Assembly (NCBI RefSeq): GCF_004010195.1 | Contig: NC_057719.1 | Span: forward strand, 28,126,710-28,190,709 | Origin: Chiloscyllium plagiosum | Taxonomy: Eukaryota | Direction of reading: 5' to 3' | Length of the DNA: 64,000 nucleotides | Part shown: piece after piece, positions 12,342 to 52,114 of the stretch | Layout: every line of letters begins with the position of its first letter | Position numbering within the stretch: the first letter of the stretch is position 1 | Position numbers and translations under genes: made by a program | Notes under the pieces: model-generated | The model's database searches: none | Told to the model about the DNA's origin: nothing | Seen by the model: the letters and a program-made list of their open reading frames with translations, nothing else

Positions 12342-15300
12342 CTAAGAAGAAATTGTAAACTGTATTATTAAAAGTGAACATCAAATTTAAAAATTAGTAC
12401 ATTTTTCAGTTGCCTCAACCAGGGTGTGCAGTGGCACCAGGCAAGGAAGGAGTTATAGAACGGAATAAGCCAGACCAATCTGCAACCTCACTGCCATGGA
12501 GATTAAAGCTCATCTTTCAGCACTTTGCACTCACCTTTCTCGATGACTTCATTTGAACAACAACTCTGCATTTGACAAAGTGCACCTCATTTTCTTTTAT
12601 CAAGCTATAAAATGACTTGAGAATCATTTTTGCTACTCGTTCAGGCTATTTTGGAAACCACACGCAAATCTCCTCAAAACATGGCTATTAATCAATGACT
12701 ATTAATTAAATGACTCTCTTTAAACAATTGGTATCATGTTTCACAAGATGGCTCTGATGGGCTCTGAAGGAGCACAAATATATTTGGCAGAATAAAAATG
12801 CTTACAAACATGTAACAATCATTACACTGTTTTCCCAACTCTTGCCCTCCCCGGTTAGATCAAAGATTGCCAACTTCTCATTGAGTTGATGGCCTTGAAT
12901 TCTTTAAAGCAGATTTATCCCTACAACCAGAAATTGTCTGAAAGAATAGAGCCTCCCATTTTCATAGATTTGGACTGTCATCTTGGTTACTGGTACATTG
13001 TGACATTTCTTTCACTAGAGAAAGGAAGGAAAGCAAGCGAAGGAAGAGAATGTTATGGTGAGATGAAGGTGACTTGCTTTCATTGCAACAGTTAAGTATT
13101 TCCTGGTCAAGCTGTTCAGAGATGTTATCACACCTCTGGAGCAGGTGAGACTTAAACTGAGGTCACCTGGCTTAGAGGTAGGACATCTACCTCAAGAGCC
13201 CTTATTGCTGTAGCTAAAATAGTCCGTTGAAACTCAAAGTGCCTGTAGCTTTATTAGGTTCTTCACCAACACTGCGTGACAGCTCATGGTCCATGTTAAC
13301 CCACACAACTTGGCAAAACTAATGCATGGCCTTAAGAAAAAATGGCTGTGTGAGAAAAGCTAATATTTCAATAAACAACTGATAAATAGCGCTGAAGAAA
13401 AGTCTCTGACCAAGGTCCCTACTCCAAGGGACAACCAAATAGATTAAATTTCTTTTTGTTGGATTGCAATTAAGGAATTTGATCTACTGTTTTGCAATCC
13501 CAAGTGATTCTGTTCACTTTTGTGTAAAACCCAATAATCTCATGTCATCTATCAAAACAATTAATTATAAATGGGAAAATGGAGGGCAACAAATGATCTC
13601 CACTAAAGCTGCAGTCGAATGAAGAATATCAATTTTTTTTGCAAATGTACAAGTTTTTTTCAGGGATAACTGGGAGCATGAACTTTCTGGAATTGCTTTC
13701 TGGTTATTTTTAATACACTATTTCCTTTTCCTCGTCTGTATTGATGCAGAGCAGATAATGAGCTGGCAAATCAACTTCAAAAATAAAGATGAATTGACAC
13801 ATTCCCAACTGAGATCAAAAACTCACATGAAATGGTGTAAATTGTATTAACACCAAACAGGTGTTCTATAAATAATGTTTTTTTCTTCTATAAAGTTTAA
13901 TAATAGTGGAAGGTGATAGAGCAAGCAAGACTGCCCATATGTCACAGAGAGGAATGATACAGTGAATCTTACTACTTGTAATCACTAAGGAGCAAGTGCC
14001 ATCCGATGGTTCTTTGTATCTAAACTGGATCCATCCACTTACAGATGGTGATAAATGTTCACAATCTAGGAGGCACCCTCACTTAAATTTTAGTCAGAGA
14101 GGCAGTAACACTTGAATCAGCCAGTGCAATCTAGTCTGATCTGAAAACTAAGCTTGTCAGAGCAGTCGAGAATTTATCCAAATCGCATCAAACAAACAGT
14201 TCCCTTTCCTTAAAATCGAAATTAGAAGTAAAGTATCTTATTTACATTTCCCATTATTGCGTTTCGGTTCTTTATTTCAAGGACAGAGCATTCCTCCCCG
14301 ACTGATCAGAAACCATTTCAGTTTCCTTTCTACATACCAACAATTCACCAGCTTGGTGAGTAAGTTATACATTAACTTCTCACTCACATGAACTGTACTA
14401 GACAAAACTAATTTGGTAAAATTCATTAAGTATACCATTCATAGCATTAATGTACTACCTCATAAACCTCACAAAGGTACAGCAAGAGAAGCAAGAAAAA
14501 TTAGTGATTGGAGCTGCACAAATATTAATAAAAGTGTGCATTTATTTTTAAGTGATTTCATTTATTATTATGTTGATGTTATTGCCTGTCTGAATGGTCT
14601 CTGGAATCTTTGTTTTCAGTTGTCTTCCTCACATTACTGATTGACAGACACTAAGTGGATGGGCAGGAAGTGACCAGCGAGCCCACGAAGCCTGCCCCAT
14701 GCTCATACTGGCCTCAGTATTATACTAGACTCTTCCCTGGCCCATTGTGGGCATGTAATATTCTGGAACAGGTGAAGAAACAGGAAAACCCAGAGCCAAA
14801 AAGGAAACAATGCCGGAGAAAATGTACTTCCCATTTTCTTAGGTCACCAAAGCAGTCCAGGATATCACGCAAACTATGAGTTTTGAGGGCTATTATTCAC
14901 CCATCTGCTACCCTCCATCTCAGGAACTTTTAGGAAGACTGCTCGATACAGAGGCGGCCCCTCTTGACACTGATACAATTCTAAAGGCAGCAGGGTGATG
15001 GTGGTAAGGTGGTTCTTAGTAATGCAATTAATTACTTCTGTTGCCTCTCCATTGGGCAGCGGCATACCTAAGGATCTCACCACTGGTAAAATGTCATGGG
15101 AGGAGGAAGCCATTGGATTCCTGCTACCCCCCAACCCATTTGAACGTCATTTTATCTGCTTCCCACCTACCTCCAAATAATAAGTAAAACCTAGTCCATT
15201 ACCCATCTACGGGGTTTCAAGCCAATGGTGCCACAATTATAATGTTTTGGAGGCTTCTAATTCTGCACATATATTACAACATTGTGTAGGTAGCAAATAA

Positions 15301-16339
15301 CACAAAATATAGTAAAATGGTAATGAACCACAGAGTTCAGCTACAGCATGGGCCGCAGGAAGGAAGCTGAAAAACATGTCCGGTTGTTACTTTACGTAGA
15401 TAGTTGTCAATCAGGGTACCCTTTTACACAAATAATGAAGACAAGGCAATATTTAGGGCAAGATCCTATGTCAGTGTGCGCTGACAAATGTCCTCTTCAG
15501 AATTACCAACTTGTCTTTTCTAGTTCTCATGGCTGGTTGCCTTGCCATGCACTTCCAATGTTTCTTGATTTTACTTTTGCTACCTGTCAAATCCAAAACA
15601 TAATTGGCAGGGTCCCATCTCCAGTGGTAATATGAGAATCCTTACCAACCCTCTTGAAATGAATATGAACATAGGTTTGAGGATGTGGAAATAAAAGATT
15701 ATTTTGGTTGTCAAACTTTATTGGTTTGTATTTATTGCCCAGCATAAACAGAAAACAAAAACTCTTCTGCACACGTGCAGAGGAGGCTCATAAGGTTACA
15801 CATTTTCTCTTGCATGCATGAACGTATCATCAAGGCGATGGTGTACTAGCGAGATCAGTTGGCTAGAAAATCAGAGAATGGTAGTCTAAATTTCATCACA
15901 AGGATTTGTCAGTTTGAATTCAGTTTAAAATCCATGATATTACAAGTCAGAAAAATATCAGAAAATAATAACTATAAAGTTGTTAGATGGATATGAATGC
16001 CCAACTGGTTCATTAATTTAGGTAAGGTAGATGCTGGCTTTACCCAGTCTGTCACAGTTATGGATGAGTCCATTCTCATGCTAACATGGTTTATCTTCAA
16101 CACTGCAGTGAATTGTCAGCCTACAGCCTGGAAGCAAGAGACAAATGTCATTTTGTTCCCTCAGTCTATTATTGGTGCCCTCACCATGCAGTGGTTCAAT
16201 CACAAGGCCTACTATAACTAGAAATGGGGAATAAATGCCAATTTGCCAACAGCATCCTTCCTTTATTCTTCACTGGGTTTTGAACCCTAAACAGAAGTGA
16301 GACAGAAGAAAAGGTGAGGTGAGTGCAGATGTTAAAGAA

Positions 16340-19318
16340 AGCAAGTTAAATAGACTAGGCAGGCAAGAGCATGGCAGGGAACAAGGGAAGACTGATGAAT
16401 GAAACAGCATTTACTTCAATGCAAGAGGCCTGACAGGTAAGGTAGGTGAACTCAGGCCACGGAATGGGAACATGGAACTAGGATATTATAGCTATAACAG
16501 AAACATGGCTGGGTGAGGGACAGGGCTTGTAGTTCAATGTTCTGGGGTACAGATGCAATAGGAAGGACAGAAGGGGAGGCAAGCGAGGAGGTGAAGTGGC
16601 ATTTTTGATGAGGGAAAACATCACAGCAGTATTTAGAGAAGATATTCCTGAGGGACTGTCTTGAGGGAAGCTGTATGTGTGGAACTGAAAAATAAGAAGG
16701 GGTTGATCACTGATGGGATTGTATTATAGCCCCCCCCCCCTCAAATAGACAGTAGGAAATTGAGGAGCAAATATGTAGGGAGATCACAGATAACTGTAAG
16801 AATAGGACTGTTGCAGTAGTAGGGGATTTTAATTTTCCAAACATAGACTGGAAACACCATAGTGTTAAGGGCTCAGATGGGGAGGAATTTGTTAAGTCTA
16901 TTCAGGTAAACTTTCTTAATCAATATGTAGATGGCCCTACTAAAGAAGGGGCAAAACTTGACCTCCTCTTCAGAAATAAAGCAGGGCAAGTGACTGAGAC
17001 ATTAGTGAGGGAGCATCTTTGGGACTAGGGACCATAATTCTATTAGTTTTAAAGTAGTTATGGAAAAGGATAGGTCCGGTCCACAAGTTAAAGTTCTAAA
17101 TTGTGGCAAGGCCAATTTTGATGGTTTTAACAGGACCATTCAAATATTGATTGGGGGAGGCTGTTTGCTGGTAAAAAGGGACATCTGGTAAGTGGGAGGC
17201 TTTCAAAAGCGAGATAACGAGAGTTCAGGGCCAGTATGTTTGTGTTAGTGAGAAGTGCAGGGCTGGCAGAAGTAGGAATGTAGGCTGACCAGAGATATTG
17301 AGGCACTAGTCAAGAAAAAGGAGAATGCATATGTCAGGTATAGGCAGCTGGAATTAAGTGAGTGCCTTGAGAAGTATAGGAGGTGTCGGAGTACACTCAA
17401 GAGGGAAATCAGGACAAAAATGCACATGAGATAGTCTTGGCAGATAGATAATGTAAAAGACATACCACAAGTATATTAAGGGCAAAAGAGCAACTAGGGA
17501 GAGAATAGGACCCCTTAAAGATCAATGAGATCATTTACATGTGGAACCGCAGGTGATGGGTGAGATCTTAAATGAATATTTCTCGTCAGTATTTACTGTG
17601 GGAAGGACATTGAAGTTAGGGAATTCAGGGAAATAAACAATGATGTCTTGAAAATTAGTCCACATTAGAGAAGAGGTGGTGCATAAAGGTAGATGAATGC
17701 ATAAAGGTAGATGAATCCCAGGTCCGGATCAAGTGTATCCCAGGACATTGTTGGAAGCTAGGGAAGAAATTGTGGGTTCCCTCGTAGAGATATTTGCAAT
17801 ATTGATAGCCATGAGTGAGGTGCCAGAAGACTTAAGGGTGGCTAATGTGATGCCATTATTGAAGAAAGGCTGTAAGGAAAGACTAGGGAACTATAGGCCG
17901 GTGAGCCTAATGTCAATGCTGACTAAGTTCTTGGAGGGGATTCTGAGAGACAGGATCGATATGCATTTGGAAAGACATGACTCACAAATTTGATTAAGTT
18001 TTTGAAAATGTGATAAAGAAGATAGATACATGGACTTTAGCAAGATCTTCAAAAGGTTCCACATGATAGACTGGTTAATAACATTAGACCACATGGAATC
18101 CAAGGAGAGCTAGCCAATTGGATATAAAATTGGCTTGATGGTAGGAGACAGAGCGTGGTGGTAGAGAAGTTGGTGTTCAGACTGGAGGCCTGTGACCAAC
18201 AGCGTGCCACAAGAATTGGTACTAGGTCCACTGTTGTTCATCAGTTATATACATTATTTGGATGACAAAGTAGGAGGCATGGTTGGTATTTTACAGATGA
18301 CTCCAAAATTGGTGATATAGTAAATAGTGAAGAAGGTTATTTAAGAGCACAATGGGATGAATTGGGCCAAGGAATGGGAGATGGAGTTTAATGCATATAA
18401 ATGCCAGGTCTTGCATTTTGAAAAGACAAACCAGGACAGGTCTGACATGGTTAATGTTGGAGCCCTGGGGAGTGTTGACAAACAGAGACACCTAAGGGTG
18501 TAAGAAGGGGTGCACCTAGGGATACATGAGCCCTTCCTGAAGAAGGGCTCATGCCCGAAACGTCGATTCTCCTGCTCCTTGGATGCTGCCTGACCTGCTG
18601 CACTTTTCCAGCAACACATTTTGAACTCTGATCTCCAGCATCTGCAGTCCTCACTTTCTCCTAGGGGTGTAAGTGCACAGTTCCTTGAAAATAGCTTTAC
18701 AGGTAGACATGGTGGTGAAGGAGGCATTTGGCACGCTTTCCTCATGGGGCAGAACATTGAGCACAGGAGTTGGGATGTCATATTACAGCTATACAAGACA
18801 TTGGTCAGGCCTCATCTGGAGTACTGCATACAATTCTGGACAACCCTGTAGAGGAAGGATGTTATTAAACTGGAAAGGGTGCACAAAATATCTAGACTAT
18901 CTATCAAGACTAGAAGGTTTGAGTGAAAAGGAGGCTACTTAGGCAGAATTTTTTTCTCCATGGAGTATACAATGTTGAGAGATTTATAAAGTCACATAGG
19001 CACAGATAAAGTGAATAGCCAAGGTCTTTACCCCAGGGCAGGGGAATCAAAAACTAGAGGGTATAAGTTTAAGGTGAGCAGGGAAAGATTTAAATAGGAC
19101 CTGAGGGACAAACGTTTTACTCAGGGTGGTGCCAGAGGAAGTGGTGGAGATGGATACAATTACAACATTTAAAAGACATTCAGACAGATACACGAAAAAG
19201 GAAAGTTGAGAGGGATAGGGACCAGACACAGGCAAATGGGACTGGATCAGTTTAGGAAACCTAGTCGGTATGGACGAGTTGGATGGAATGACCTGTTTCC
19301 GTGCTGTAGGACTCTATC
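16340..19318 (+). mobile_element. Long degenerate CR1 LINE ORF2 (APE endonuclease + RT + 3' UTR)
   Basis: YFNARGL, DIIAITETWL, VVGDFNFPNIDW, ANVMPLLKKG..GNYRPVSL, LYKTLVRPHLEYC. Many stops and deletions. Interrupted at ~18505-18661. Confidence 0.93.
18525..18661 (+). mobile_element. Hammerhead-bearing short element, family A, inserted in CR1
   Basis: CTGAAGA-aGGGC-tcat-GCCC-GAAA-CG-TC at 18537-18564, then the family A body ending CTCACTTTCTCC. Flanks cctaagggtgtaag / cctaggggtgtaag. Confidence 0.8.
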
Positions 19319-19358
19319 ATATGTATTGTTCATCTATACTTGCCTTTGAGCTGAATGA

Positions 19359-19580
19359 GGAGAAAGTGAGGTCTGCAGATGCTGGAGATCAAAGTTGAAA
19401 CTTTATTGCTGGAACAGCACAGCAGGTCAGGCAGCATCCAGGGAACAGGAGATTCGACGTTTCGGGCACAGGCCCTTCTTCAGGAATGAAGAAGGGCCTG
19501 TGCCCGAAACGTCGAATCTCCTGTTCCCTGGATGCTGCCTGACCTGCTGTGCTGTTCCAGCAATAAAGTTTCAACTTTGA
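19359..19580. mobile_element. Palindromic hammerhead-bearing element, family A (Penelope-like pLTR derivative)
   Basis: Perfect inverted arms 19389-19482 and 19487-19580 (94 bp each, ggaa spacer). Direct repeat ctttgagctgaatga at 19344-19358 and 19575-19589. Confidence 0.9.
19452..19487 (-). ncRNA. Minimal type I hammerhead ribozyme motif
   Basis: Minus strand AUUC-CUGAAGA-a-GGGC-cugu-GCCC-GAAA-CG-UC-GAAU: 4-bp stem I, intact core, 4-bp stem II, palindromic ACGU mini stem III, GUC cleavage triplet. Confidence 0.8.
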
Positions 19581-20329
19581 GCTGAATGACTTGATAAGAC
19601 ATTTCAGAGGGCAGTCAGAGTCAACCACATGGCCCTGGGCCTGGAGTAGCATGTAGGCCAAACCATGTAAGGAGGCTGATTTCCTTCCCAAAAGCATAAC
19701 AGTGAACCAGTGGGTTATATAGCAACTGATAATTGTTTCCTCATCACCATTAACAAGATGAGCTTTCATTGCCATATTTTAGTTATTGGATTTGAATTCT
19801 ACCAATTACCATGGTGGGATTTGAACACTTATCTCTAAGAGTGTTTAGCCTAAATCTCTGGTTTATTCACTGAGAGATGTAATATACCACTGTCTCCCCA
19901 AATCCTGACGATGAATTTGAAGAAGTATACAGCTGCCTATGAGCATTGCAAGTGATCAGTGTCTTTAAATCCCCATTTAACACTGGTAAACTCTCATTTC
20001 TATACCGAACCTGCAGCCACACATATGCAGAAGTAAAAACTCACAAAGTGATGTTGAGCTGTTTGTAAAGTTCTGCAGACCACAACCACAGGAAGCATCA
20101 TGTGACTAGCTTAAACAAAGAGTTGAAATGATCATCACTCTCTCAAAAAGCAAGCGCATGAAAACCGTGCCCCATCTGAACCATCTATCAAAGCTAGATT
20201 CAAAACAAAAGTGAGGACTGTGGATGAAGGATTCCGCTTGTATATGCAGCCTCAGTGGTATCAGTATAATGTGAGCACACATAACCCACAAGGCATCCTC
20301 AGTTATACTTGGAATATCTTCATATGCAT

Positions 20330-20830
20330 TTGGTATGACAGTGATTGCAATCTTCAGTGTTACAACCAATCGCTGTCTGGATCAAACACCCAACTTCACA
20401 TTCCTGCCAATGCAAGCTGAAGAAACATTAAGTCATCTTCCACTTTACAGCCTTCTGGACTCAATTATTTTGGACCATAAATTCTATTCTCCATTTTAAT
20501 CTCTTTCGACCAAGAGCCATATGCATTTTTATTCACGTATTTACTTTCAGACAGAATTGGCCTTTTTGTGTTATTTTGGACCAATAACAGTACTATTCCA
20601 GTTGCTTTTTACACCTTGACATCTTTGGTATTCAATTTCCTTCTAACCTAGTTCTGACTTTCCCTTTTGTTCTACCTGACCTTTCCCTCTTATTCAATAG
20701 CATCACCTTTCTACCTCTCTTCAATTCCATAAATGATTCACATTGGACTCAAAATGGTAACTGTTTCTCTTCCCACAAAAACTGCTACACCTGCTGGTTT
20801 TATTTCAGATCGCCATTCTCTGCAGTACTG
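20330..20830 (+). mobile_element. Highly decayed Penelope-like element 3' end
   Basis: Residual TLQPSGLN coding motif near 20445, and a tail resembling the family C elements at 39118 and 39690. Confidence 0.45.
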
Positions 20831-23004
20831 TACATCCACATGTTTTCATGTACTTGGGGCAGCAAGTCCAATGGAAAAAGTGAGGAGATCTACTTATAAT
20901 AAATACAAGGAAGGAAGGCTGCTTTCTCATGTAGGTTATCTGTCCTATACCAATGTGCTCTGAAACCATTAGAAATATTGTTCAATTTACATTTTGATAC
21001 GCATCATTCTTAAGTTGACTTCCAATTATTTTCAACTTATGTCCCTTCTATTGTTGTTAGATCTTGCATTGAATTAGTGCTCCACATCAAATCTTTCTTG
21101 TCTACCTTTATGAGGTTTCATCTCAGCAATATCCTTTGGCAACCCAATTTTTCCAGTCTTCCCTCATAGTTCAATCCATGGACATTGGAAATAAATATAC
21201 TGTATTAGTTTGATTCAGATGGAGGCACTCTCACCCCTAATCAAAACACTGCATTTTTAAGAACGACTACATACAATCTAGGGATACTCTTTAGTGCAGT
21301 GCTGAATAAGGATGGTCTTGATGGAGTTGACATTCCTTCATCTCATTTTCAAGGAAAGCATACTACAAGAGGGAGAGCTGAGGCCAACATGAAATTAATA
21401 TGAACAGTGTTAGCTGTTGAGAGGTTATCTGTGGAAAGGCAACATTCAAATTTTATGTTGCCTCATTGCCAAGACAAATATTAACCATTAGACACCTTTA
21501 ACAATGATTGTCCCTGTTTTGATCAATTCAAACAAGCTTTTGCAATAGGACATGGAATAGACGTCAGGTGACTCATTTACATATAAAATAAAGTTGCCGT
21601 AGTCCCAGGAGATGATAGGGTTTTTCTCTCTGATTAAAAAGAGATAATTGATGGTGGTTTAAACTTGAGGGTTACACACCTCAGGGCAAGGGGAGAGGTT
21701 GGGAAGGAGGGAACTTCATGGTTAATGCAGTTACATATACCAGGATTCTAACCCCTGCCTTAGGCTGTTGTCTCCAAAGTAGCCTCTCCAGTCATAGCAG
21801 AGCTCATGATGTAAGTGCAGCTACACCACATGAGGAATGTTGTGCCTGACATTGACTTGTTTTGCCCCATTTTCATCAAAATGACCAATTCTTACCTCTC
21901 TGTCTTTTGGAGGACATAGGTTTTGAATAAATTTGTTGAGGCCTAGGAAACCCTGGCCTGGCTGCATTTATTGTCCATAACTAGTTGCCTCATTTCTCTC
22001 AAACTGCTGAATGATTAAGTTCTGGGTTCAGAATGATGCTTTGCGGAGGAAATTTCAAGATATTGGTCCATGAATGAAGGTGGAATGGCAATGATGATGC
22101 ACGTCCACAACAGAAACATGTGCAGCTTGGAGGCAAGTTGGAGATGGTACAACATTGATTGCTCCTGCCAGTGGCAGGGGTTACAAAGGAGTGAAGGTCT
22201 GGTGACATTATCTTCACAAGTCACACACTCTGTCAGCATAATGTGACTGTGACATGAATGTGCTTCATTCTGGAAAGACTTAAGTTTTTACAAATGTTGC
22301 TGTAGCTGCATCCATCCATACAAAGAGTGAATATTCCGTCATATTCTTGGTGTGACACTGCACTTGGCAGAGAATCTTGGTGCTGTCAGAAGCTCAGTCA
22401 CTTATTGTAGAGTACCTAACCTCTGCCTTGGCCTTGCAGCACAGTGGTTTGTCCAGTCCATGCAAATCTGCTTTTCTCTCAGGCAAGTTTCTGGTCAGTG
22501 GTGATCCCCAAGACATTTATGTTGGGGGACTTGAAAAGACGGGTGTTATTGAAGATTGGAAATTTTGTTTATGCTATCTTTCATTTGAGTTGGCTATTGC
22601 CAAGAATCACTGTACTGTAAATGAGCGTAATCAGTAATCCAGTTCATTCATCCATGTAAGTGAAAAGAAAACTCACCAAGACCTGTGTTTGCAACCTGAC
22701 AAAGAAAAATAGCAATATGCCCCCAGTCAGACACAGACTATGAAAACAGAAACAATAATTCCTTTCCAATTTTACCAAGGAGGGGTCCTTGGCGCAGCAG
22801 GTAGCACTCTTGCTCTGGGTTCAAGTCCCATTCTGGGACTTGATAGTTATGAAGAATGTGTTCACAATGTGTCAAAAAGGAGGATTATCACCCTGGAAAT
22901 TCTTTCAAAATGTCTATGGCAGGTATAAGAGTCTCCAAGTCAGATATGTTTGATGTGGAATGGTGCCCCTAAAGTGACAGACTAATGGCCTGTTCAGAGA
23001 AGGC

Positions 23005-23440
23005 TTACTAGACTGATCACAGGTTTGGTGGGATTATCTACTTAGGACAGCGTTTGTAGATTGTAGTTTTGAATAATCAAAGATGACCTTATTGGAACAC
23101 CCAAGAATCTCAGAGGATTTGACAGGGTAGATGCAGGAAGGATTTTCTTCTTTTGGGAGAGTCCAGCACCCAACAGCATCATGTTGGAGCAAGAGGTTAC
23201 CCATTGAGGACTGAGATGAGGAAGCATTCGTCTCTCAGGGCGTGATGAATCTCTTGAATTCTTTACCACTGGGTCTTTAAGGATATTCAATGCTGAGATA
23301 GACAATTTTTTTAAATCAGTAGGGAATGGGGAAAAGGCAGGAAAGTGGAATTGAGGGTTATCAGATCAGCCATGATCTCACTGAATGACAGAGTAGACTC
23401 AATGGGCTGAATGGCCTACTTCTGCTCCTAAGTCTTATAG
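23005..23440 (+). mobile_element. CR1-type LINE 3' fragment (second subfamily)
   Basis: Degenerate DLI..KNLRGFDRVD, and tail gatcagccatgatctc..gggctgaatggcctacttctgctcct. Confidence 0.75.
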
Positions 23441-24164
23441 TCCGTTCCAGGAAGAATGAGCCATAGGAACAGACAACAACATGCGCTTATCTGCCTCAAG
23501 TGAAAGATCCAAGTGCATCTGTCCTATAGCAACTGCATTCTAACAACATATGTAGGAACCAAACACCACAAAGGTACATAAAGGTCACATTTGACTTGCA
23601 TTTTGGATGACTTGACATTCTACAGAAGTTCATGCTGGTAGGATTTTTACATATCTTTGTGATGTCAAACGGAGAAGCAAAATCAGACTCATTACTGTAG
23701 AAATCCAATCTGGAGTACCAAAGTACTGAAAACATTAACTCAATTCAAGTACACAGATACACGTACCCTCCTCTCTGCAAACATTGCTGTGTAATCCCAA
23801 TGCTTTTAGGGAATTTATTACCATTGGTGTAAAAATATGCATTCTTATTGAAATTGCATGATGATATGGATATGCTTCTATTTACTCATTAATGTATGGA
23901 AACCTATCTACTATGTCCAGCACACAGCAGTTTGCAAATACAGATGTGGCAAAGTTGCATAATGATGCAAAATAACAGAGCAATCCAGTAATATGCAGAT
24001 GCACCACTTTTACAGAGAAACAGCCAATGGCAGATGTATTATATTTGCAAGGCAATACCACAATGCATTTGCAAATAGAGCACAACAAGTGCTTCAGTTT
24101 TTAAATCTTAAATATTCTCACTGATGAAAGTCTTTCAGTAATAACAGGAAAAGATACAGTAGAT

Positions 24165-24465
24165 AAACTATTTCCATTGGTTGGGGATTCTAAAACTAAG
24201 GGGCATAGTCAAACCAATTAGGGCTTGACTGTTCAGGAGAGATGTTTGGAAGCATGTTGATAGAGATTTGGATTTCTCTTACAACAATGGCAGCCGATGC
24301 TAGATTAGTTGTTAATTTTAAATTTGAGATAGATTTTTTTTGTTAAGCAAGATGTATTAAGAAATATTGGCCCCAGATTGGAGTTAGGCCCCAGATCAGC
24401 AATGATCTCATTGAACAGTAGAACAGGCTCAAGGGGCAGAATGGTCTACTCCTGATCCTATCTTC
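24165..24465 (+). mobile_element. CR1-type LINE 3' fragment (second subfamily)
   Basis: Same 3' UTR motif as 23005-23440. Confidence 0.7.
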
Positions 24466-24944
24466 CAAGATTATTTTATGATATTATCTTGTGTTTCTGG
24501 AAAAGTTTTCTCTCAAAATTGAGTGGTTGATTCTTCCAAGTCAATCGTACACCCTAATCTTAAGTTAGTTTTTTTCCTGCCCACACTGAGATGTGTCCCT
24601 TATGGAATGGAGAGCACTGTAATTGATGCAATCTTTACTGGGTTAAATGCAGTCAAACTCTATTCCATTAAATACTCTTTAAATTAAGGAATATTAGACA
24701 CAAACCAAAGAACTAGATGCATTTAATTACAATTACAAAAGTAAAAGACAAAATACTTGCATTTATATAGCATTTTTATAACTGACGGATGTGAAATCAA
24801 GTAATAAAAAGCCCAAACATTTAGCAAACAATAAAAGTACAGATTATCTCAACACACATATAATTAGTGTTCAGATTGTACCAATTATAGCTTTGTCAAA
24901 ATGAATGGGCAGAACTGTTCCTATATTCAAAGAAAGACTCAGCA

Positions 24945-26400
24945 CAGCAGGAGGTTATTAGTTCATCATGTTTCTGCTAGGTCTTTGTAAGAACTAACTG
25001 ATTGGTCCCACTTCCATGCTTTCTCTCCCATTGTCCAGCTGCTGGTTCCTCATCAAGCATTTATTGTCCTTCATTTGGAAAGTTATTATTAAATTTGCTT
25101 CCACCGCCCTTTCAATCAGTCTATTTTAGACCATCTTAACTCACTGTCTGAAAAACATTTTCCTTACGTTACCTGTGGTTTATTTGCCAATTACATCTAT
25201 GAACTCTGATTACAGACCTGCCTGCAATTTATTTACATTATCAAAACTCTCCAAGAATTTGAATAACATAAGCCTAAGCCTGTGTAATTGCTGCATGTAA
25301 CCAATGCCCATCCAGGTACATTTCCAGGGAATCTCCTGTACATCCTTTATGAAGCCTTGACATCCTTCCTATAGTGTAGTGATCTGAATTAACACGTTAC
25401 TCTGGCCAAGGTTCGACTAGCGTAATTGTTTAGTACAGCTTCCACGTTTTGATACTGTGCGCCTCCATTTAGAAAACAAAGGATCCTGTATACCTTTTAA
25501 ATTGCTTTCACCACCACTGCCGTCAATAACTCTTGGCTCTCTCTTTGCAAAATTGTATAAGTTTTATTGCCTGTTCTTTTTTGTCCTCCTAAAAATGAGA
25601 AATTTTGCACTTGTATTAAACTTTATCTACCATGTGCCTGTCTATTTCACCAGTCTTTATCTTCACCCAGTCTGTCACTATTGTCTTCACTGTTCATCAC
25701 ATTTGAGAGATTAATGTCATCTACAATCTTTGAAGTTATGATCTGTATACCTAATCATTCATAATCATAAAACACAGCAGTGTTCCCAACAGTGACCTCT
25801 ATGTGGCATCACTGCTACCTGTATGATGACAAATAACACATTCCTTCGTTTGGAAAGTTATTATTAAATTTGTTTGCACCACACTTTCAGTCAGTCTATT
25901 CTACTCAGTCTGAAATAGTTCACTAGTATTCCTTGTTTTTGTCCCATATCCATTTTCAAAGCTATGCAGTCGCTGCCCTAATGCACTTCACTACAATCTT
26001 GCTGACAAGACTAATATGTTGTACAATATAAGACTTCTTTTGAAAGTCCATAAAATACTCATCAACTGCATTACCCTTATCCATCCTTTCCATTTCTGCA
26101 TCAAAAACTCAATCAAGGTATTAAATTTACATTTGACAAACTCATGTCAACCTTCATTTATTAACTTATATTTTAAAAATACTATTTTATATCTTCAATA
26201 TAATTTTATTTTAGATTAATATATCCAACAATTTCCCTACCATTGATGTTAGGTTAATTGTTGGGTTTATACCATTTTTCTTGTTGAACAGGAATGCCAA
26301 TTGACAATCCTCCAATCCCAATCCTCCAATCCCAATCCTCCAATCCCAATCCTCCAATCCCAATCTGAAAAGGACTGGAGATTGTGGCTACAGTCTTTCT
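24945..26400 (-). mobile_element. Old, heavily decayed CR1 LINE
   Basis: Scattered antisense RT-like motifs (MDFQK, DFKDCR, NYQL) and a 3' UTR remnant. Boundaries uncertain. Confidence 0.55.
26305..26365. repeat. Tandem repeat (CAATCCTCCAATCC) x ~4.3
   Basis: Directly visible 14-bp unit. Confidence 0.92.
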
Positions 26401-27914
26401 TCAATCACTCAAGAATCCACTCGATCAGACGGGGTGATCTTAACATTTGTCAATTTACTCCTTTAACTTGGGCAGACAGCAACAATATTGAAATGCTTCA
26501 ATACAAATGAACCTTCCACGCACACCATTGAAACAGGAAACATTTCTTTTATTATGCTCCTATTATTTGTCATCAGTTTGACTTTCACCACGAACACAAG
26601 TTTACGAGACTACAAAACAGGAGCGGGTCTGGCAGGCAACAAAATAAATGTCTATAACCTGTTTAATTATTTAGCAAAGCGAGGTTACTGGATTATCAGT
26701 TGTTAGCCTTATGTGAACATGACATTACAGGTGTCAGAATGTGGCTATTCACAAGTCTAGAGATAATTAACAAGTATTAAAACATGGTGTCTGGTGCAAT
26801 AAACATTATGTCTTTTGCACAGATGGATAGGGTACTGGAGCTAATCCATGGATGCTCAAATTATTTATAGAATATAGATTAATCTCCCTGTCACATATAT
26901 TGACAGAAATTAGCTCCAACTGATTAATTGCAGCTCAACATATGCACACTTTGGTATGATCAGAAATTCAATTACCACACAGTAAGTTTTCTCACAATTT
27001 AAAATGGTGAAGATGCATTTCTAACACTAGGTAAATCCACCCAAACATTCAATTCTACAATGTCTGGAACTAAGAAAAATTGGAACGCTTACATGATAGG
27101 TGAAGTGGGATTATGATTCTGAACAGTAAACCCTGATATTATGTTGTGAGAATGCAGGCCAATTTTCACTGATAAAGAGACACATATTGCAACTCCCAGT
27201 TCTTCACTAACACACAAAGGACCACCAGGACACTGAAGGAAGCAGCAAACAGAAAAGATAAATTTGATGCAAGAACAGCAATAACAATGCGTACTGGTGC
27301 AGAATCTAGAGCATTAACTAAAATAAAACTTCTTTTTATGCAGCATCCTGGACTAATCTTTGTTTTGCTGCTTCTGTTTGATATTAACCTAAACATGAAC
27401 AATTTATGTACAGGATTTAATTTTAAAAATACAACAGTTGTCATAGTCATTTCTGTCATATTATAAGAATTATGAAGTAAATATTTTAAAGTGGTTCAGC
27501 TACCTGGTTGATGTGTTGCCAAAGGGCAAATGATGAAATTTTCTTTGATGCTAGGAAATGAAAGTGTGTGTCTGCAAGAAATGGAGGATCAAAACTACAA
27601 CCATATAGATCAATTCATATTACTTTGAGGTGGATGTTAATCTGTAATGTGTTGTTATTGTAAGTTTGACACAAATGTTGTAAAACATACCTCCAAATTT
27701 AAATGGCCAGATAACAAAACCAGCAACTGTCTGACTGAAAGTGTTCATTTTGGTCAAACAATCAGAAACTATTGGGGGTGGGGGTGTTCCAAAAGAAGGA
27801 TGCCTCATGATGCAAGTCTTGGATATGCAAGGCACATTCCTCTCCCTTCATTGTTTTTTCTTTTTACTTTGTCTGTAAATACATGCTTGTTAATTTTTTT
27901 CTCTCTTAGGAAAG

Positions 27915-28545
27915 AGGTGTTTAAAAAGGTGTTTGGGAGCTTGCCTTCGTTGCTCAGTTGTTTGAGTATAGGAGTGGGGACATTATGCTGCTGTTGTACA
28001 AAAGACAACTTGGTGAGGCCTCTTCTGGAACACTGTGTCCAGTTCTGATCACTCAGTCCTAGGAAGGACATTATCAAGCTGAAGAGGGTTCAGAAGAGAT
28101 TTACCAGGATGTTGCCGGTATGGAAGGTTTGAGTTATAAAGAAAGGCTAGATAGGCTGGGACTTTTGTCACCGGAGCACGGAGGTTGAGAGGTGACCAGT
28201 TAGAAGTTTATAAAATAGTCAGAGTTGAAGATAGTTGTCTTTTCTCTAAGATGGGAAATTTCAAGACTAGGGGGCACATTTTTAAGTTGAGAGAGAAAGA
28301 GATTTTAAAAAGACAAAAGGCAATTTTTTTTTACACAAAGTGGTTTACATGTGGAATGAACTTCCTGAGGAAGTGGTCGATGTGGGTACAATTACAACAT
28401 TTAAAAGACATTGGAACACATACATGAATAGGATATGTGGACGGATACGGGCCAGGGGCAGGCTGGTGGGACGAGTTTAGTTTGGGATTATATTCGGTAC
28501 GGACTGGTTGGACTGAAGGATCGGTTTCTGTGCTGTATGACTCTG
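27915..28545 (+). mobile_element. CR1/HER1-type LINE 3' fragment
   Basis: LVRPLLEHCVQF, RVQKRFTRMLPG, RGDQLEVYKI, 3' UTR ending gtatgactct. Confidence 0.9.
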
Positions 28546-28641
28546 GGACTCAGTGAATCTTCGAATGTTGCAAATGCTGGGTCAATTGAATGGGTACATC
28601 TGCATGCTCTAGTTGTAATTAACAACAACTGACACTAATCA

Positions 28642-29260
28642 GGTGGGTTTGTGGGCCACCATGATGCCAAGGGGTCTGAGTAGTCCTACCAACCAACACC
28701 CACCAACACACTGAAACAGCAGCTAATGAACTTGAAAGACCCTATACAGATAATGAGCAAAACTAATGTCATTTACAAAATACCGTGCAAGGACTGTAAC
28801 AAACACTACATTGGACAAACAAGCAGAAAACTAGCCACCAGGATACATGAACACCAAGTAGCCACAAAAACACATGACCCTCTCTCACTAGTATCCTCAC
28901 GTATGGGTGAGGAAGGACGTCACTTCAACTGGGACAACACATCATTCCTAGGACAAGCCAAACAAAGACACGCACGAGAATTTCTAGAAGCATGGCATTC
29001 TATCAACAAACGCATTGAGTTAGACCCCATCTACCACCCCCTAAAAAAGGAACATGAAGTGACTTTGCCACAGGAAATGACATCAAAGAAATCCAAACAT
29101 ATAAATAGAGAGCAGGAATTTTCAGCACTGCTTCGCCTGAGGCCCACTGAAGATGTTACCTAGTAGGGTAATGAAACATGTGGAAATGAACCTTCCAGCT
29201 CAGCGAGCAAACCTACATCCAAAACCTCAACCTGAGCTACAAATCTTCTCAAAACTCACT
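28642..29260 (+). mobile_element. Penelope-like element 3' fragment: GIY-YIG endonuclease, pLTR with hammerhead-like motif, inverted 5' tip
   Basis: ORF 28726..29163 NVIYKIPCKDCNKHYIGQTSRKLATRIHEH...REFLEAWHS. CTGAAGA-tGTTACC-tagta-gGGTAAT-GAAAC at ~29147-29177. Confidence 0.9.
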
Positions 29261-29944
29261 AAGCTAATGAGATATTTTACTTTATTTTTCAAAAGAAAAT
29301 GTCTGGAATATTTTAAAGTAAATCTTTGTTGGCTTTTTCACTCTGCCATCTGATATAAGCCTGAAGGCTTTGCTGCTACATGATTAATTGCTGCTACACC
29401 ATCATCCATTATCACAGGGGGTGCCTTCCATTCCCATTGATAGCTACAAGTGTTTACATGCCTTGTGAACTGGAACTATGAATGAGTTCCAATGCTTGTT
29501 GTTATAAGGGTCTGTGCATTTGAATTGCAAGGTTTTATTCAGTTGAGGGGATGTAAATGTGTTTACAAACGTGAGATTTTTATTTGCAATGTAAATTCTA
29601 CCATAAACAATTTTGTTTTGGAGAGTTTTGCTTTGCCTCAATTCTGCTTGTGTTTTGAAATCTGCCTAGTGTAGATACTGGCAGGTATTTACAGGTAGGG
29701 AAATGGCAAAGGTTGTGAGGGCAATGAGTTGGCAACCAAGCTGGAATTGGGACTTTGAAGGGGGTTTGGGTTGAGCAGCATAAGTTGGCAGGGGTGGGGG
29801 TAATGGAATGAATGGAGCATGCAGATGGGTCTTGTTTCGTTTTTTGTTCTTTAAATTTCAACAGTGTCAGTGCACCAATTCAGGACTTTCTGCACAGCTC
29901 ATCTCAATACCTGACAGCCTCAGCTCTCATTACTGGTCAACTCA

Positions 29945-30237
29945 GAATCCCTACAGCATAGATAGTGGCCATTTGGTCACCTGTAACCCCGTATTTACCA
30001 TGTCTAACCCACTTAGACTGCACATCCTTAGATACTACGGGGTCGGTTAGCATGGCCAATCCACCAAATCTGCACATCTTTGGACTGTGGGAGGAAAGCA
30101 GAGCACCAGAGGAAACCCACGCAGATACGGGGACAATGTGCAAACTCCACACAGACAGATGGTCACCAGAGGCTGGAATCAAACCCAGGTCCCAGGCGCT
30201 GTGAGGCAGCAGTGCTACCACTAAGCCACCATGCCAC
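29945..30237 (-). mobile_element. tRNA-derived V-SINE (HE1-like)
   Basis: Homologous to the other SINE copies (TGTGGAGTTTGCACATT..CCCCGT.TCTGCGTGGGTTTCCTC). Confidence 0.88.
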
Positions 30238-30899
30238 TGTGCATCCTTGCTTATCATGTTTCCCAAGAAGCCTTGCTACACCAGGACAGGATCTGACCTT
30301 TCCTCCTACCCACACCTCCAACAACTTCATGGTCATCATATCATGTGATTAGTGGGGAACAGAAGACAACCTAGATGGACCTTAAGTGTTGCAAAGTAAG
30401 AAGTAGTAACCAATATTCCGAAAACTCAATCACCATGAAGATAATAACAAAAAAACATCTTTTTGATATGGTCAACAATTTTTCTCCATAACCATCTCCC
30501 ATTGTCCAGCTGAATGGGGCTGTCCTCATAAATTCGAATTCTGATCTATTTAATCCTAACCCAAAACGTGTCTCTCAATATCTTCACTCCACCCCGCCAA
30601 CCCCACAGATCAGTGTCTCTGGAGTCCCCAAACATCTGTGCTTGGCAACATCATCCAAACATGTGGATCAGCTGATGATGCCAACACTTAACACTTCATC
30701 ATTTCTCGTGATCCCACCAAAGCCTCTGTACGATTTTGAAAATAAAGAAAAAATGTCCTGCTCTTAAAGTTATGATGACAGGCGCCTTCAACATCAGCAC
30801 TGATCACAGAGCCTGCCACCCCCTTGTCAGGAATTACATCCATCCCCAGCCATTATATCAGGCTGAACCAATTGACCACTACACCTCCCCCCTTCAACC

Positions 30900-31510
30900 C
30901 GCAAACGCATCCCAACCGCATCTCTGCTCAAGTGGTGCTGAGATTCTCATCTACCACTTTGTCACTTCCAACACAAATATTCCCATGCTCCCCTGCCCTC
31001 CCATCTCCCATACTCTGGAAATCTTTGTCTTATTCGAATCACTACAGTCAGATGCCTAGATTGCACTTAATTCCATTCACCTTTTACTCCTTTTATTGGT
31101 AACTTACTTTGGCTCCTGGTACCCAATATCTACAAATTTAAATTATCATTGCAATGCTTTAATATGGCCTCAGACCCCCTCACTTTCTCAGCAAGTGGCC
31201 CCAATAATGAAACCTCTCCAATCCTCCAGTGGGCACATTTGGAGCACCCATTCATTTGCTTGACCACTGGCGAATGAACCTTCAGCCATCTAAGACTCAT
31301 ACTCCTTGTTAAATTCTCATATTCTCCACCTCTCCTTTCTTCTTTAAAACATCCACCAAATACACTATCTTTGAACAAGCTTTTAACCATCTCATCTATT
31401 ATCTACACATTAGTGTCAACATCGGTTTGTTTGATTACTTCACTGTGATTTCTTTGACAGAATTTTCAATATCGTAGGTGCTGTATAAAACTTGTTATAC
31501 TTGTTGTTGT
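30900..31510 (+). mobile_element. Decayed L2-like LINE 3' fragment
   Basis: Remnant AEILIYHFVTS coding motif and an L2-like 3' region similar to 57200-57735. Confidence 0.5.
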
Positions 31511-32479
31511 CACATGAGAATTGTGCTACAGAAATGACAGACGGTGTTGAAATAACTGTCCCCATGAAGGCAATGGATGGGATTGAAATTCCATCTTGAA
31601 GCAAATCACTGGTGTAACAGGCATTCTGCCTTTCAGGACCAGATACCTTTCGCTTTGTCTCATTTTGACTTTACCAATTCAAAACGTACACAATGGCACA
31701 AAACCTTTCCTTCATAATTGCACCATTTCCATATTTAAATGTTTTCTCCATTTTACACTTACAGATTTCTTATTCTAAACCACTTGCCCAGCCTTGCTTT
31801 TACTGATTTTGTATTTTCATTTGTGTTATTGTCATATCTACTACCTTGATCAATATATGCAACTTTACATGCCCACTACCACTATTGTTAATTAAATGCA
31901 ACAATAGATTTGTTGGTCATATATTTAACATATTAATGAAGACATTGAATTGTCCCAGCAAGGTCTGACTTATTTGTAAAAGTAGTATATGCAAGAAACT
32001 TTCTTGGTGAGATCGAGGTTTAGTCAATGATGGTGCATTATTTTCAGCATGATGCTTTCGGCTATTGTATTTGTTAACTATTAAAAAAATCTGTTCTTTC
32101 TTCTTGTATAAGGGAGAAAGTTAGTCATATTGTGCTGCTTCTTTATTGGATGACCAAGCACAATACTGCTCCACTTTCAAAATGTGCTAAATGCAACACT
32201 GCTAATGCAACCTGACCACTGACTCCACCTCAAAATGGGAACAATAACTCTACATCTGTCTCATCTTCCAGCAGCTAAACTGAACAGCGAGTTACCCTGT
32301 TTACACTACATAAGTGCTCAGTTAACTATTAGCTTACCACTTCCAATCATTTTGGACATAGATCAAGTTCAAAATTAAATTCAAACTTCCAGTTAATAGA
32401 AGAATAAAATGTTAAAGTTACATGTCACAAAATATTTATTGGAACAAATGACATAAAACACTATTGACTAAACATTAAT

Positions 32480-33826
32480 TTCTATTTTTCATCAACCTAA
32501 CCAAGGCTTTCGACTCAGTCAATCAGGGACTGCTTTGGAAGATTGTGTCAGATTTCCAAAATAATTCATCAACATCCTCCGTCTTCTCCACAAGATGTTG
32601 GCAGTGCTTCTCACCAATAGTAATATGACAGGATCCTTGGAGGTCAAGATGGGATGTGACATCAGCCCAAACATTTTCTCCATCTTCATCACCACCATTC
32701 TTCATTCCGGCAAGCACAAGTTTCCCAGTTTGTGGACATTATCTACAAAACATTTCAACCTAAACTGGTGGAAATCCATGGGAAAAAACAACACTGATCT
32801 TGTTTATGGACCTTCAGTACGTTGGTGACAATGGCATCTCTGCTCTCTTGGAAGTGAATCTTCAAGTCTCACTTAATGCCTTTGCAGAAGCACACTGAAG
32901 AATTGGTCTCAGCCTCAATCTCAAGAAGATTCAAATCCTTTACCAACTTGTCATAGGTATAGTTCTGGTCCATCCCTCCAATAAGATCAACAGACAAATC
33001 CTCCTAAACGTGAACACTTCCCCTACCTGGAAAGCTACCTGTCATCTAAGGCTGACGTTGATACAGAGGTTCAACATCGCATCCAATCTACAAGCACTTA
33101 AGGATGAGAGTCTTCAATGACTGTGACATCTGTGCTGATACCAAGATCCGTGTGTATAAGGCAGTCATTCTTCTGACTCTTCTATATGGCTCCAAAACAT
33201 AGACTACATATAGATGACTCCTCAAGATCCTTGAAAAGTACCGCCATTACTGATTGAGAAAAATTCTCCATATCACCTGGAAGGATGAGCGTACAGATAT
33301 CAGCATCCTTGAAGCAGTTAACAGCACCAACATCGAGGCCACAATCATCTGAAACCAACTCCGCTAGGCCAGCCACTTGCTTAGGATGCCTGAGCTCCAG
33401 TTACCCATAACAAATCTTTGCCCAGCTAAAAGAAAGGCACTCGAACAAGAGGAGGGCAGAGGAAGTATTTGAAAGATTCTCTGAAGCTTCTCCCAAGAAA
33501 TGCAACAATTGATGTGAATGTTTGGGAAACACCCTTTTTTCAGACGAAACTGGCTTGGAGGAACTTCCAGCTCGAAGGGGCATAACTCTGAGTACACCCG
33601 GCAGCAAGAGGAAGTAAAGAAAAGGAACTGGAGAAAGGAATGCCAATGATCAAGGCCAAGGTCCACTTCCACCTCCCAGAAGCAGTTGCCAACTGTGCAG
33701 CTGGAGATGTAGCTCTAGGATCGGGTTCATCAGCCACACAAGATCCCACAGAACCCAGGACCAGTAATTCGCAATTTCCTAGCTGGACAATCACACTCAT
33801 TAGCGAGTGATTGCTGATGACGATGA
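32480..33826 (+). mobile_element. Decayed RTE-clade LINE (RT and 3' end)
   Basis: FINLTKAFDSV, DLQY..DN, TKIRVYKAVILLTLLYGSKT, KILHITWKD motifs. Ends in a gat/gac trinucleotide tail. Confidence 0.8.
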
Positions 33827-33889
33827 TTCGTAGACAATTTATGCATCAAGCTAGGGAGAGGACGATTCCTCCTTTATTCTCATCAACAA

Positions 33890-34225
33890 TATGATATATT
33901 ATTATTGTCACATGTACTGACATAGTGAAAATTATTGTATTGCATGCCATACAGACAAATCATACCTTATATAAGTACATCAGGGTTACAGAACAGAATG
34001 TAGAATATAGTGTTCCAGCTACAGAGAAGATCAACTTTAATGTATGAGAGATCCATTCATAAGTCTGATAACAGCGGGGAAGAAGCTGTTCTTAATTCTG
34101 TTGGTACGTAGTTTCAAACTTTTGTATCTTCTGCCCAATGGGAGAGGGTGGAAGAGTGTATAACCAGGGTGGGAGGGGTCTTTAATCATGTTGCCTGCTT
34201 TCCTGAGACAGCAGGAAGTAAAGAC
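33890..34225 (-). mobile_element. Rex1/Babar-like LINE 3' fragment
   Basis: ORF 34037..34270 IKDPSHPGYTLFHPLPLGRRYKSLKLRTNRIKNSFFPAVIRLMN. Confidence 0.82.
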
Positions 34226-35075: not shown

Positions 35076-35151
35076 GCCTGGCCTGCTGTATTTTTCCAGC
35101 ACCACATTTTTCAACTCTGGTACTCCAGCATCTGCAGTCCTCACTTTCTCC
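35076..35151 (+). mobile_element. Family A element 3' fragment (no ribozyme core)
   Basis: cctgctgt..ttttccagcaccaca...ccagcatctgcagtcctcactttctcc. Confidence 0.8.
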
Positions 35152-37833: not shown

Positions 37834-37926
37834 CTGAAAAATGTGTTGCTGGAAAAGCACAGCAGGTCAGGCAGCATCCAAGGAGCAGGAGAATCGACGT
37901 TTCGGGCATAAGCCCTTCTTCGGGAA
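37834..37926 (-). mobile_element. Single-arm family A element with 13-bp TSD
   Basis: TSD tgagggaagagag at 37821-37833 and 37927-37939. Core reads CCGAAGA (U to C)-GGGC-ttat-GCCC-GAAACGTC. Confidence 0.87.
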
Positions 37927-39088: not shown

Positions 39089-39117
39089 TTTCACTTCACA
39101 TCAATTAACACAGCTGA

Positions 39118-52100: not shown

Positions 52101-52114
52101 TACCAGAAAATGTA

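What the first reader, a model, noticed from the sequence alone, without database searches (positions are those of the whole stretch)
19344..19589. Perfect 94-bp-arm palindrome with head-to-head hammerheads and a 15-bp TSD
Arms 19389-19482 and 19487-19580 are exact reverse complements, which is why the ORF track gives the same peptide on both strands. Unmutated CpGs and an intact TSD indicate a very recent insertion. The minus (pre-mRNA) strand holds a complete hammerhead with a 4-bp stem I. The plus arm lacks the C of CUGA. In the intron RNA the 94-bp hairpin should sequester the ribozyme, and it would be a dsRNA substrate for ADAR or Dicer. In DNA it could form a cruciform.
Basis: partly seen in the sequence, partly recalled or inferred. 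Interest (0 to 1): 0.7.

Follow-up and report, generated by a model that had tools for sequence, protein, structure and literature searches.

The report
Mirror-image Penelope insertion in kinase intron
This roughly 220-base mirror-image repeat is a real, young insertion of the ribozyme-bearing end of a Penelope-type jumping gene, one of thousands like it in this genome, and its sister copies suggest it was likely built at the landing site from two short DNA copies of the element's RNA, one started from each cut DNA strand.

Summary
In detail: perfect 94-bp arms, GGAA centre, 15-bp TSD. The site is empty in a related organism, and the right junction is present in three samples of this one. The sequence is the hammerhead-bearing end repeat (pLTR) of a Neptune/Nematis-type Penelope-like element, in an intron of a minus-strand protein kinase C gene. 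It is not rare: this junction occurs 1,009 times, and 51 of 90 sampled young copies are inverted. Inverted pLTR, one-sided tail and TSD are a published PLE layout. Sister copies argue against a simple fold-back. One arm ends at the tail and the other about 35 nt inside (68 of 71). Centre orientation is 31:37, and the tail-less arm usually reaches further 5' (25:7). Best reading (inferred): both target strands prime reverse transcription on one uncut RNA, the copies usually stop just 5' of the hammerhead, and they are joined head to head. The hammerhead is a minimal, dimer-dependent type, masked by the hairpin, and probably inert here. This scan has reported the same layout and mechanism on other DNA, including this genome. 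Interest is low to moderate.

The parts
19344..19358 (+). Left target-site duplication (15 bp); its last 2 bp also match the element's continuation
   Evidence: one copy at the empty site in organism B; 13-16 bp in 56 of 68 sisters
19359..19388 (-). PLE 'tail', present on this arm only (element positions 95-124; position 1 = 19482)
   Evidence: long-arm ends at 124-130 in 85 of 90 tail-selected copies
19389..19482 (-). Left arm: pLTR copy, sense on the minus (pre-mRNA) strand
   Evidence: 100% over 128 nt to the pLTR behind the ORF end in L195
19452..19487 (-). Minimal type I hammerhead: 4-bp stem I, core, extra A before a 4-bp stem II, 1-bp stem III with a palindromic 4-mer; predicted cut between 19456 and 19455
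   Evidence: sequence; stems I and II are the MFE of the isolated 36-mer, -7.1 kcal/mol; features match min-HHRs of PMC4209133; activity untested
19483..19486 (.). 4-nt centre (element positions -3 to 0 on the minus strand), inside a head-to-head junction with up to 3 nt of microhomology
   Evidence: the same junction occurs 1,009 times, 221 times in this subfamily
19487..19580 (+). Right arm: tail-less pLTR copy lacking the core C; the last 6 bp overlap the TSD
   Evidence: short-arm ends at 87-91 in 48 of 68 sisters
19402..19407 (-). AATAAA hexamer of this subfamily (mirror copy at 19562-19567 on +)
   Evidence: sequence; 26 family-level RNA reads have a poly-T loose end at 19393
19575..19589 (+). 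Right target-site duplication (15 bp)
12342..58369 (-). Host intron (about 46 kb) of a protein kinase C gene, likely epsilon/eta type, between exons 58370-58433 and 12167-12341
   Evidence: splice sites and phase read from the sequence; weak match to the PKC-epsilon C2 end (E 0.17); match to PKC chains at E 3e-12; a further C1-type exon near 3900

Best explanation
This is a single insertion of the hammerhead-bearing end repeat of a Penelope-like retroelement, likely made at this site by two reverse-transcription events, one primed from each cut strand of the target and joined head to head. Shown: identity with the pLTR of an RT + GIY-YIG element; TSD; empty site in a relative; one tailed and one tail-less arm; even centre orientation; variants shared by both arms of an insertion. 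Inferred: the endonuclease makes staggered nicks about 15 bp apart; one 3' end primes at the tail site (124-130) and the other at an internal site (88-91), probably on the same RNA. The RNA is copied across the ribozyme cut site, so it is uncut or rejoined. Both cDNAs usually end at -3 to -6, likely the RNA's 5' start at an initiator-like sequence (consensus recalled). One cDNA end then anneals to the other through 1-3 nt and is extended; either cDNA can keep the centre, and here the tailed one did. The ribozyme is predicted to be inert at this locus, and the copy most likely has no host function.
For: Element: L195 has the ORF end followed by the window's arm, 100% over 128 nt; the L197 frame carries RVT_1 and GIY-YIG above Pfam cut-offs, with a CX4CxxC linker. 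End pairing: 68 of 71 exact-junction loci have one tailed and one tail-less end, none is clearly tail-tail, and 3 are neither; about 50% mixed is expected if ends were independent (p 2e-17). Centre orientation is 31:37 overall, 18:22 among perfect-arm copies and 14:15 in 30 mixed-subfamily loci. In the B type the tail sits on the arm that a fold-back would have had to copy from a tail-less arm. The tail-less arm reaches further 5' in 25 versus 7 inverted copies (p 0.002), and ORF-reaching arms end tail-less in 19 and tailed in 8 of 39. Seven variants are shared by both arms of one insertion; four of them occur in no other of 286 young arms. Arms of one locus are closer than arms of different loci (4.4 vs 10.8 differences, permutation p 5e-5, 27 of 30 loci). 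55 of 78 arms that reach -3 stop at -3 to -7, and only 2 stop at -8 to -12. In vitro, an anole PLE cuts and extends both strands, starts at two internal sites that bound the tail, and uses uncleaved RNA (PMC11167929).
Against: The mechanism is inferred from finished insertions only. PMC11167929 saw no difference in start site between strands in vitro, so the strict pairing seen here is not shown biochemically. Shared variants could arise by later arm-to-arm conversion. The 5' pile-up is not absolute: 21 of 78 arms run past -13, 72 of the first 100 listed matches continue as template, and 46 RNA reads cross the site into the upstream body. A copied-cap G was not established: G:T was 44:11 in the first 100 matches (tallied by eye), but partner-arm letters can supply the G, and only 2 of 9 solo copies have it. 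L088 may be tail-tail (it reaches 104, then an N gap), and L181 is tail-less at both ends. 38 of 90 tailed copies are solo, so double priming is not obligatory.
Confidence: 0.68

Rival explanations
1. Single cDNA fold-back: one cDNA primed at the tail reaches the hammerhead front, snaps back on a 3-bp hairpin and copies itself; centres later flip by recombination between the arms.
For: At this locus the centre can form a 3-bp hairpin with a GGAA loop on the tailed arm. It explains variants shared by both arms.
Against: It predicts the centre on the tailed arm in young copies, but perfect-arm copies are 18:22. Flipping tends to 50:50 and cannot give the 25:7 excess in which the tail-less arm reaches further. 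It gives no reason for the second arm to stop at 88-91 whatever the target (37 of 51).
Confidence: 0.08
2. Self-priming on an antisense RNA template, as proposed for head-to-head PLE palindromes (PMC3846280, Discussion passage).
For: It is the published reading of the same layout. About 30% of family RNA read pairs over the left arm lie in the minority orientation.
Against: It does not by itself explain why both outer ends sit flush against the TSD at two fixed sites like the sense-RNA start sites shown in vitro. Nor does it explain solo copies ending at either site (7 tailed, 6 tail-less among 30 arms, read by eye).
Confidence: 0.08
3. Both strands are primed, but on two separate RNA molecules (for example a hammerhead-paired RNA dimer), and/or the 5' pile-up is an RT arrest at the ribozyme fold rather than the RNA's start.
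For: Minimal hammerheads need a partner copy (PMC4209133), and tandem units exist (L148). The pile-up coincides with the 5' strand of stem I. Many arms and RNA reads cross the site.
Against: Two independent RNAs would not force one tailed and one tail-less end, nor share private variants unless both came from one locus. The gap in 5' ends between -8 and -12 fits two RNA classes at least as well as a leaky block.
Confidence: 0.12
4. The palindrome moved as a ready-made unit (a MITE-like DNA element, or a retrocopy of a palindromic master).
For: Three copies (L038, L048, L145) share one junction and the same upstream flank, so a palindromic source can be re-mobilised. This exact junction recurs 221 times.
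Against: Junctions are diverse: the commonest recurs in 4 of 51 copies. The exact-junction copies come in both orientations with unrelated flanks and varied short-arm ends. TSDs vary from 11 to 18 bp, and the termini are asymmetric.
Confidence: 0.04

Closest known systems
Insertions of endonuclease-positive Penelope-like elements with inverted pLTR, one-sided 30-40-bp tail and TSD (PMC3846280 passages; PMC8557442 passages)
   Same: Head-to-head inverted pLTR, tail on one end only, TSD, hammerhead in the pLTR, and a parent with RT then GIY-YIG and the CX2-5CxxC linker of the Neptune/Nematis clades.
   Different: No ORF: only about 125 + 89 nt of pLTR. The TSD is longer (mode 14-15 bp, against 8-10 bp in the rotifer passages). 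Targets here are not microsatellites. The published explanation is antisense self-priming; the copies here favour priming from both strands.
Anole Poseidon (PAc) in vitro, PMC11167929
   Same: Two internal start sites that bound the tail, both target strands extended, template copied uncut.
   Different: Different clade. That study saw no strand-specific use of the two sites and, in the parts read, did not address inverted insertions; here the two sites pair one per end.
Minimal hammerheads of metazoan PLEs, PMC4209133
   Same: Short stem I, extra nucleotide before stem II, palindromic minimal stem III, predicted need for a dimer. That paper notes pairs 100-700 bp apart on opposite strands.
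   Different: Stem II is 4 bp rather than 7-8 bp; the two motifs are back to back, and one lacks the core C.
L1 twin priming (recalled; search found no paper applying it to Penelope)
   Same: The second target strand primes on the RNA and gives an inverted 5' part with junction microhomology.
   Different: L1 arms cover mostly non-overlapping parts of the RNA from a variable internal site. Here both arms cover the same segment from a fixed site, which would need strand displacement or a second RNA.
Non-LTR retrozymes (bioRxiv 10.64898/2026.07.22.740005, part 1 of 5 read)
   Same: Short, non-coding, type I hammerhead, related to the PLE pLTR.
   Different: Retrozymes are defined there as head-to-tail tandems with a complete hammerhead in each unit; this is one inverted pair.

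Membership tests
EN+ Penelope-like element insertion | Sequence belongs to an element with RT followed by GIY-YIG endonuclease | tested here: met
   (L197, L195)
EN+ Penelope-like element insertion | Inverted 5'-truncated pLTR adjacent at the 5' end | tested here: met
EN+ Penelope-like element insertion | 30-40-bp tail at one end only | tested here: met
   30-36 nt here, depending on the TSD overlap
EN+ Penelope-like element insertion | TSD with a single copy at the empty site | tested here: met
   (organism B also lacks 19334-19343)
Neptune/Nematis clade | CX2-5CxxC linker between RT and EN, plus cysteines inside GIY-YIG | tested here: met
   sequence against the definition in PMC8557442
Neptune/Nematis clade | RT phylogeny places it in Neptune rather than Nematis | not tested
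   no named reference set was fetched
Minimal PLE hammerhead | Core, stems I and II, extra nucleotide before stem II, palindromic minimal stem III | tested here: met
   minus strand 19452-19487; not met on the plus arm (core C missing)
Minimal PLE hammerhead | Self-cleavage (as a dimer or protein-assisted) | not testable with these tools
   needs an in vitro assay
Canonical hammerhead (Rfam) | Match to an Rfam hammerhead model | tested here: not met
Non-LTR retrozyme | Two or more head-to-tail units, each with a complete hammerhead | tested here: not met
   inverted pair with one incomplete motif; tandem units of the same pLTR exist elsewhere (L148)
MITE / DNA transposon | Symmetric terminal inverted repeats and a fixed-length TSD | tested here: not met
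   asymmetric termini, TSD 11-18 bp
miRNA precursor | Rfam match above gathering score; processed small RNA | tested here: inconclusive
   only generic hairpin hits below gathering; no small-RNA data laid

The most novel reading that the evidence does not exclude
Penelope-like elements integrate by coordinated two-ended priming on one RNA. A dimeric enzyme starts a leading cDNA at the internal site and a trailing, strand-displacing cDNA at the tail site, one per nicked strand, and joins them head to head. This would explain the inverted pLTR, the one-sided tail and the TSD in one step. In this subfamily the internal site would also be the mRNA's poly(A) site.
Probability: 0.45. Interest if true: 0.55.

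Novelty: new member of a known kind. Interest (0 to 1): 0.28.

Why it matters
The locus itself is one ordinary copy among thousands. The value lies in the family. How PLEs make their inverted ends and one-sided tails is described as undefined in PMC8557442 (passages), and this young burst gives testable rules: one tailed and one tail-less end, either arm can keep the centre, and the tail-less cDNA runs further. The existing in vitro PLE system could test these directly. The family also scatters thousands of perfect hairpins of about 90 bp through the genome, introns included, which may feed dsRNA pathways (untested). The mechanism was not found in print in eight searches of the held library, but this scan has proposed it many times already.

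Tried and rejected
Rfam: no match at gathering score in the window; only generic hairpin hits at the locus. Polymorphism: X7 and X8 gave no cover at 19590-19669 at 97% likeness and no empty-site joint was listed, which is inconclusive; X14 (organism C) gave no bridging record. Expression and editing: one search listed no RNA holder. In raw RNA run X21 (about 2% read) no read lay on the unique flanks; family reads cannot be assigned to this locus, and the 97% filter would drop heavily edited reads, so ADAR editing was not testable. That run showed no pile-up of molecule ends at the ribozyme cut site, but a poly(A)-primed single-cell library is a poor test. Cap-derived G: inconclusive. The bacterial promoter/terminator scan found nothing and does not apply to this organism. 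The Pfam check of the host exons and of the ORF at 28684 was not obtained, so the gene identity rests. The TSD script found TSDs in only 13 of 38 solo copies; this is a lower bound, since by eye several have offset or compound junctions. Rejected readings: assembly fold-back artefact, MITE, retrozyme, miRNA gene, unique locus.

Full report
Numbering: element position 1 is the U of the hammerhead CUGA core (window 19482 on the minus strand, 19487 on the plus strand); the core C is 0.

1. Observation. The arms 19389-19482 and 19487-19580 are exact reverse complements (94 of 94) around GGAA, inside a 15-bp direct repeat at 19344-19358 and 19575-19589. The minus-strand RNA folds at -207.7 kcal/mol, z -25.7, with 0 of 200 shuffles as good. 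Six CpGs are intact against a window o/e of 0.24. The left arm continues for 30 more bases (19359-19388). The last 6 bp of the right arm are also the first 6 bp of the TSD, so the copied arm is probably 88-90 bp.

2. It is a real insertion. In contigs of four public runs, 3 of 3 samples of organism A have a contig from 19553/4, inside the right arm, through the TSD to 19850 with no difference. The one run of organism B has a contig that joins 19333 to 19575: the element and one TSD copy are absent, as are 10 further bases, and the flanks differ at 13 of 374 letters. No record spans the centre. Two more samples of A and one of organism C were uninformative. The copy therefore post-dates the split from B; polymorphism was not shown.

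3. What it is. The window holds six further copies of the family, two of them older inverted pairs (36676-36874 and 56903-57109). In the genome the 26-nt junction occurs 1,009 times, control 0. The window's subfamily has 9,709 exact tail matches, 221 of them with this junction. Longer copies run upstream into an ORF: L195 has the ORF end followed by the window's arm, 100% over 128 nt, and the 589-codon frame of L197 (its first 55 codons undetermined) matches RVT_1 (E 4e-8) and GIY-YIG (E 1e-4), both above cut-off. It has the CX2-5CxxC linker that PMC8557442 gives for Neptune/Nematis (passages). The finding is therefore two copies of a PLE end repeat. The host is a protein kinase C gene on the minus strand: exons 58370-58433 and 12167-12341 join in phase, with a weak match to the PKC-epsilon C2 end (E 0.17) and a strong match to PKC chains (E 3e-12).

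4. The hammerhead. On the minus strand, 19452-19487 has a 4-bp stem I, the core, an extra A, a 4-bp stem II and a 1-bp stem III with a palindromic 4-mer. In isolation stems I and II are the MFE (-7.1 kcal/mol). These are the features of the minimal PLE hammerheads of PMC4209133 (parts 1-2 of 4 read), which showed no cleavage as monomers and low cleavage as dimers. Rfam has no hammerhead match. The plus arm lacks the core C, and any transcript through the locus would fold into the 94-bp hairpin. The ribozyme is predicted to be inert here (inference).

5. Sister copies, selected by the tail. I parsed 90 tailed young copies, from the first 100 places listed on contig C1; the last six were not fetched, and two loci each held several places but were counted once. 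51 are inverted, 38 solo and 1 tandem. The long arm ends at 124-130 in 85 of 90. The inverted partner ends at 88-91 in 37 of 51. TSDs of 11-17 bp were found in 42 of 51 inverted copies. Junctions are diverse: the commonest recurs 4 times. The tail-less arm reaches more than 5 nt further 5' than the tailed arm in 25 copies, and the reverse holds in 7 (p 0.002); it is 23 versus 7 if three copies of one re-mobilised source count once. Among 39 of the 40 listed ORF-reaching hits, the ORF-bearing arm ends tail-less in 19 (10 with an inverted tailed arm upstream) and tailed in 8 (1 with a possible partner); 12 are broken or end earlier (tallied by eye).

6. Sister copies, selected by the junction. 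I parsed 70 of the 221 exact-junction loci plus the window's own. 68 of 71 have one tailed and one tail-less end, 3 have neither, and none clearly has two tails (L088 is ambiguous; L181 is tail-less at both ends). Tailed arms are about 48% of all arms (10,727 of 22,414), so independent ends would give 50% mixed (p 2e-17). The centre belongs to the tailed arm in 31 and to the tail-less arm in 37; among perfect-arm copies it is 18:22, and in 30 loci of mixed subfamilies, three of them also in the young set, 14:15. 44 of 68 have identical arms, so the window's perfection is typical of its subfamily. TSDs are 13-16 bp in 56 of 68. Seven variants occur in both arms of one insertion, four of them in no other of 286 young arms; none is A>G. 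In the mixed set the two arms of a locus are closer than arms of different loci (4.4 vs 10.8 differences, p 5e-5, 27 of 30 loci used).

7. Where copying stops. Of 78 arms that reach -3, 55 stop at -3 to -7, 2 at -10 or -11, and 21 pass -13. Genome-wide, 2,328 arms stop exactly at A(-4) before a non-template letter. That A lies in a sequence matching the initiator consensus (recalled); PLE pLTRs carry internal promoters with an initiator (PMC2377424 and PMC3846280, passages). Run-off at the RNA start is the likelier reading. I took this idea from earlier scan notes and then tested it; arrest at stem I is not excluded. Against an absolute start: 72 of the first 100 matches (6,412 in all) continue as template, and 46 RNA reads cross the site. 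The cap-G test was inconclusive. Few copies stop at the ribozyme cut site (2 of 38 solo copies at 26), which fits an uncut template.

8. Mechanism. Both outer ends abut the TSD at two fixed sites about 35 nt apart. The anole PLE enzyme cuts and extends both strands in vitro, starts at two internal sites that bound the tail, uses uncleaved RNA and is predicted to be a dimer (PMC11167929, parts 1-2 of 4 read, supplements not read). The simplest model (inferred) is staggered nicks, two primed cDNAs on one RNA with the internal one leading, stops near -4, and joining by microhomology with either cDNA keeping the centre. A single fold-back predicts the centre on the tailed arm and cannot give a 25:7 excess the other way. 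The published antisense self-priming model (PMC3846280, passages) does not explain the paired end sites. Two-RNA priming and later arm-to-arm conversion remain possible.

9. Comparison and novelty. Inverted pLTR, one-sided tail and TSD are described as the typical PLE structure (PMC3846280 and PMC8557442 passages; PMC8969392 passage). It is not a retrozyme by the tandem definition (bioRxiv 10.64898/2026.07.22.740005, part 1 of 5). Eight searches found no paper stating two-ended priming for PLE inversions; the library lacks most subscription journals, and no supplements were read. This scan has reported the layout and the model before: 153 findings in at least 29 genomes match the words, and 2,233 notes in this genome fit. 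These are unchecked and not independent support. My two-ended reading was noted, before I saw them.

10. Verdict. A new member of a known kind. The locus is ordinary; the family statistics make an open mechanistic question testable. Interest 0.28.

Noticed in passing
L038, L048, L145 (contig C1): Three insertions share one longer palindrome and the same non-element flank upstream (over 140 nt in L048, about 290 nt or more in L038 and L145): a palindromic copy re-mobilised with its host flank. L048 joins that flank to a piece of the PLE ORF.
   Followed up: partly
window 19393 (element position 90), run X21: 26 family-level RNA reads end in poly-T here, 9 nt past the subfamily's AATAAA and exactly at the tail-less end site; it may be the element's poly(A) site. 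Agreement is 0.67 and the source loci are unknown. Older subfamilies lack AATAAA yet end at the same site.
   Followed up: no
L148:1950-2810: Head-to-tail array with 224-bp units (pLTR, tail, about 80 nt of downstream leader), retrozyme-like, inside a TSD; one unit carries what looks like the start of the ORF.
   Followed up: partly
window 36676-36874 and 56903-57109: Two older inverted pairs of related subfamilies in the same intron, each with one tailed arm; solo copies at 18534-18661, 35076-35151, 37838-37929 and 59556-59664.
   Followed up: partly
window 40865 (+), 44032 (-), 58850 (-): A second short repeat family with its own hammerhead-like core and a different stem II.
   Followed up: no
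window 28684-29200 (+): Open frame resembling a GIY-YIG endonuclease end, followed by a hammerhead-like core at 29147: probably a third PLE family.
   Followed up: no
bins 19386-19440 and 19568-19593: The subfamily's diagnostic segment is far less covered in organisms B and C than in A, which suggests a lineage-specific burst (contig depth is a crude measure).
   Followed up: no
L114, L111, L112, L100: Inverted copies with extra sequence at the centre, from about 13-28 nt up to 136 nt in L114.
   Followed up: no
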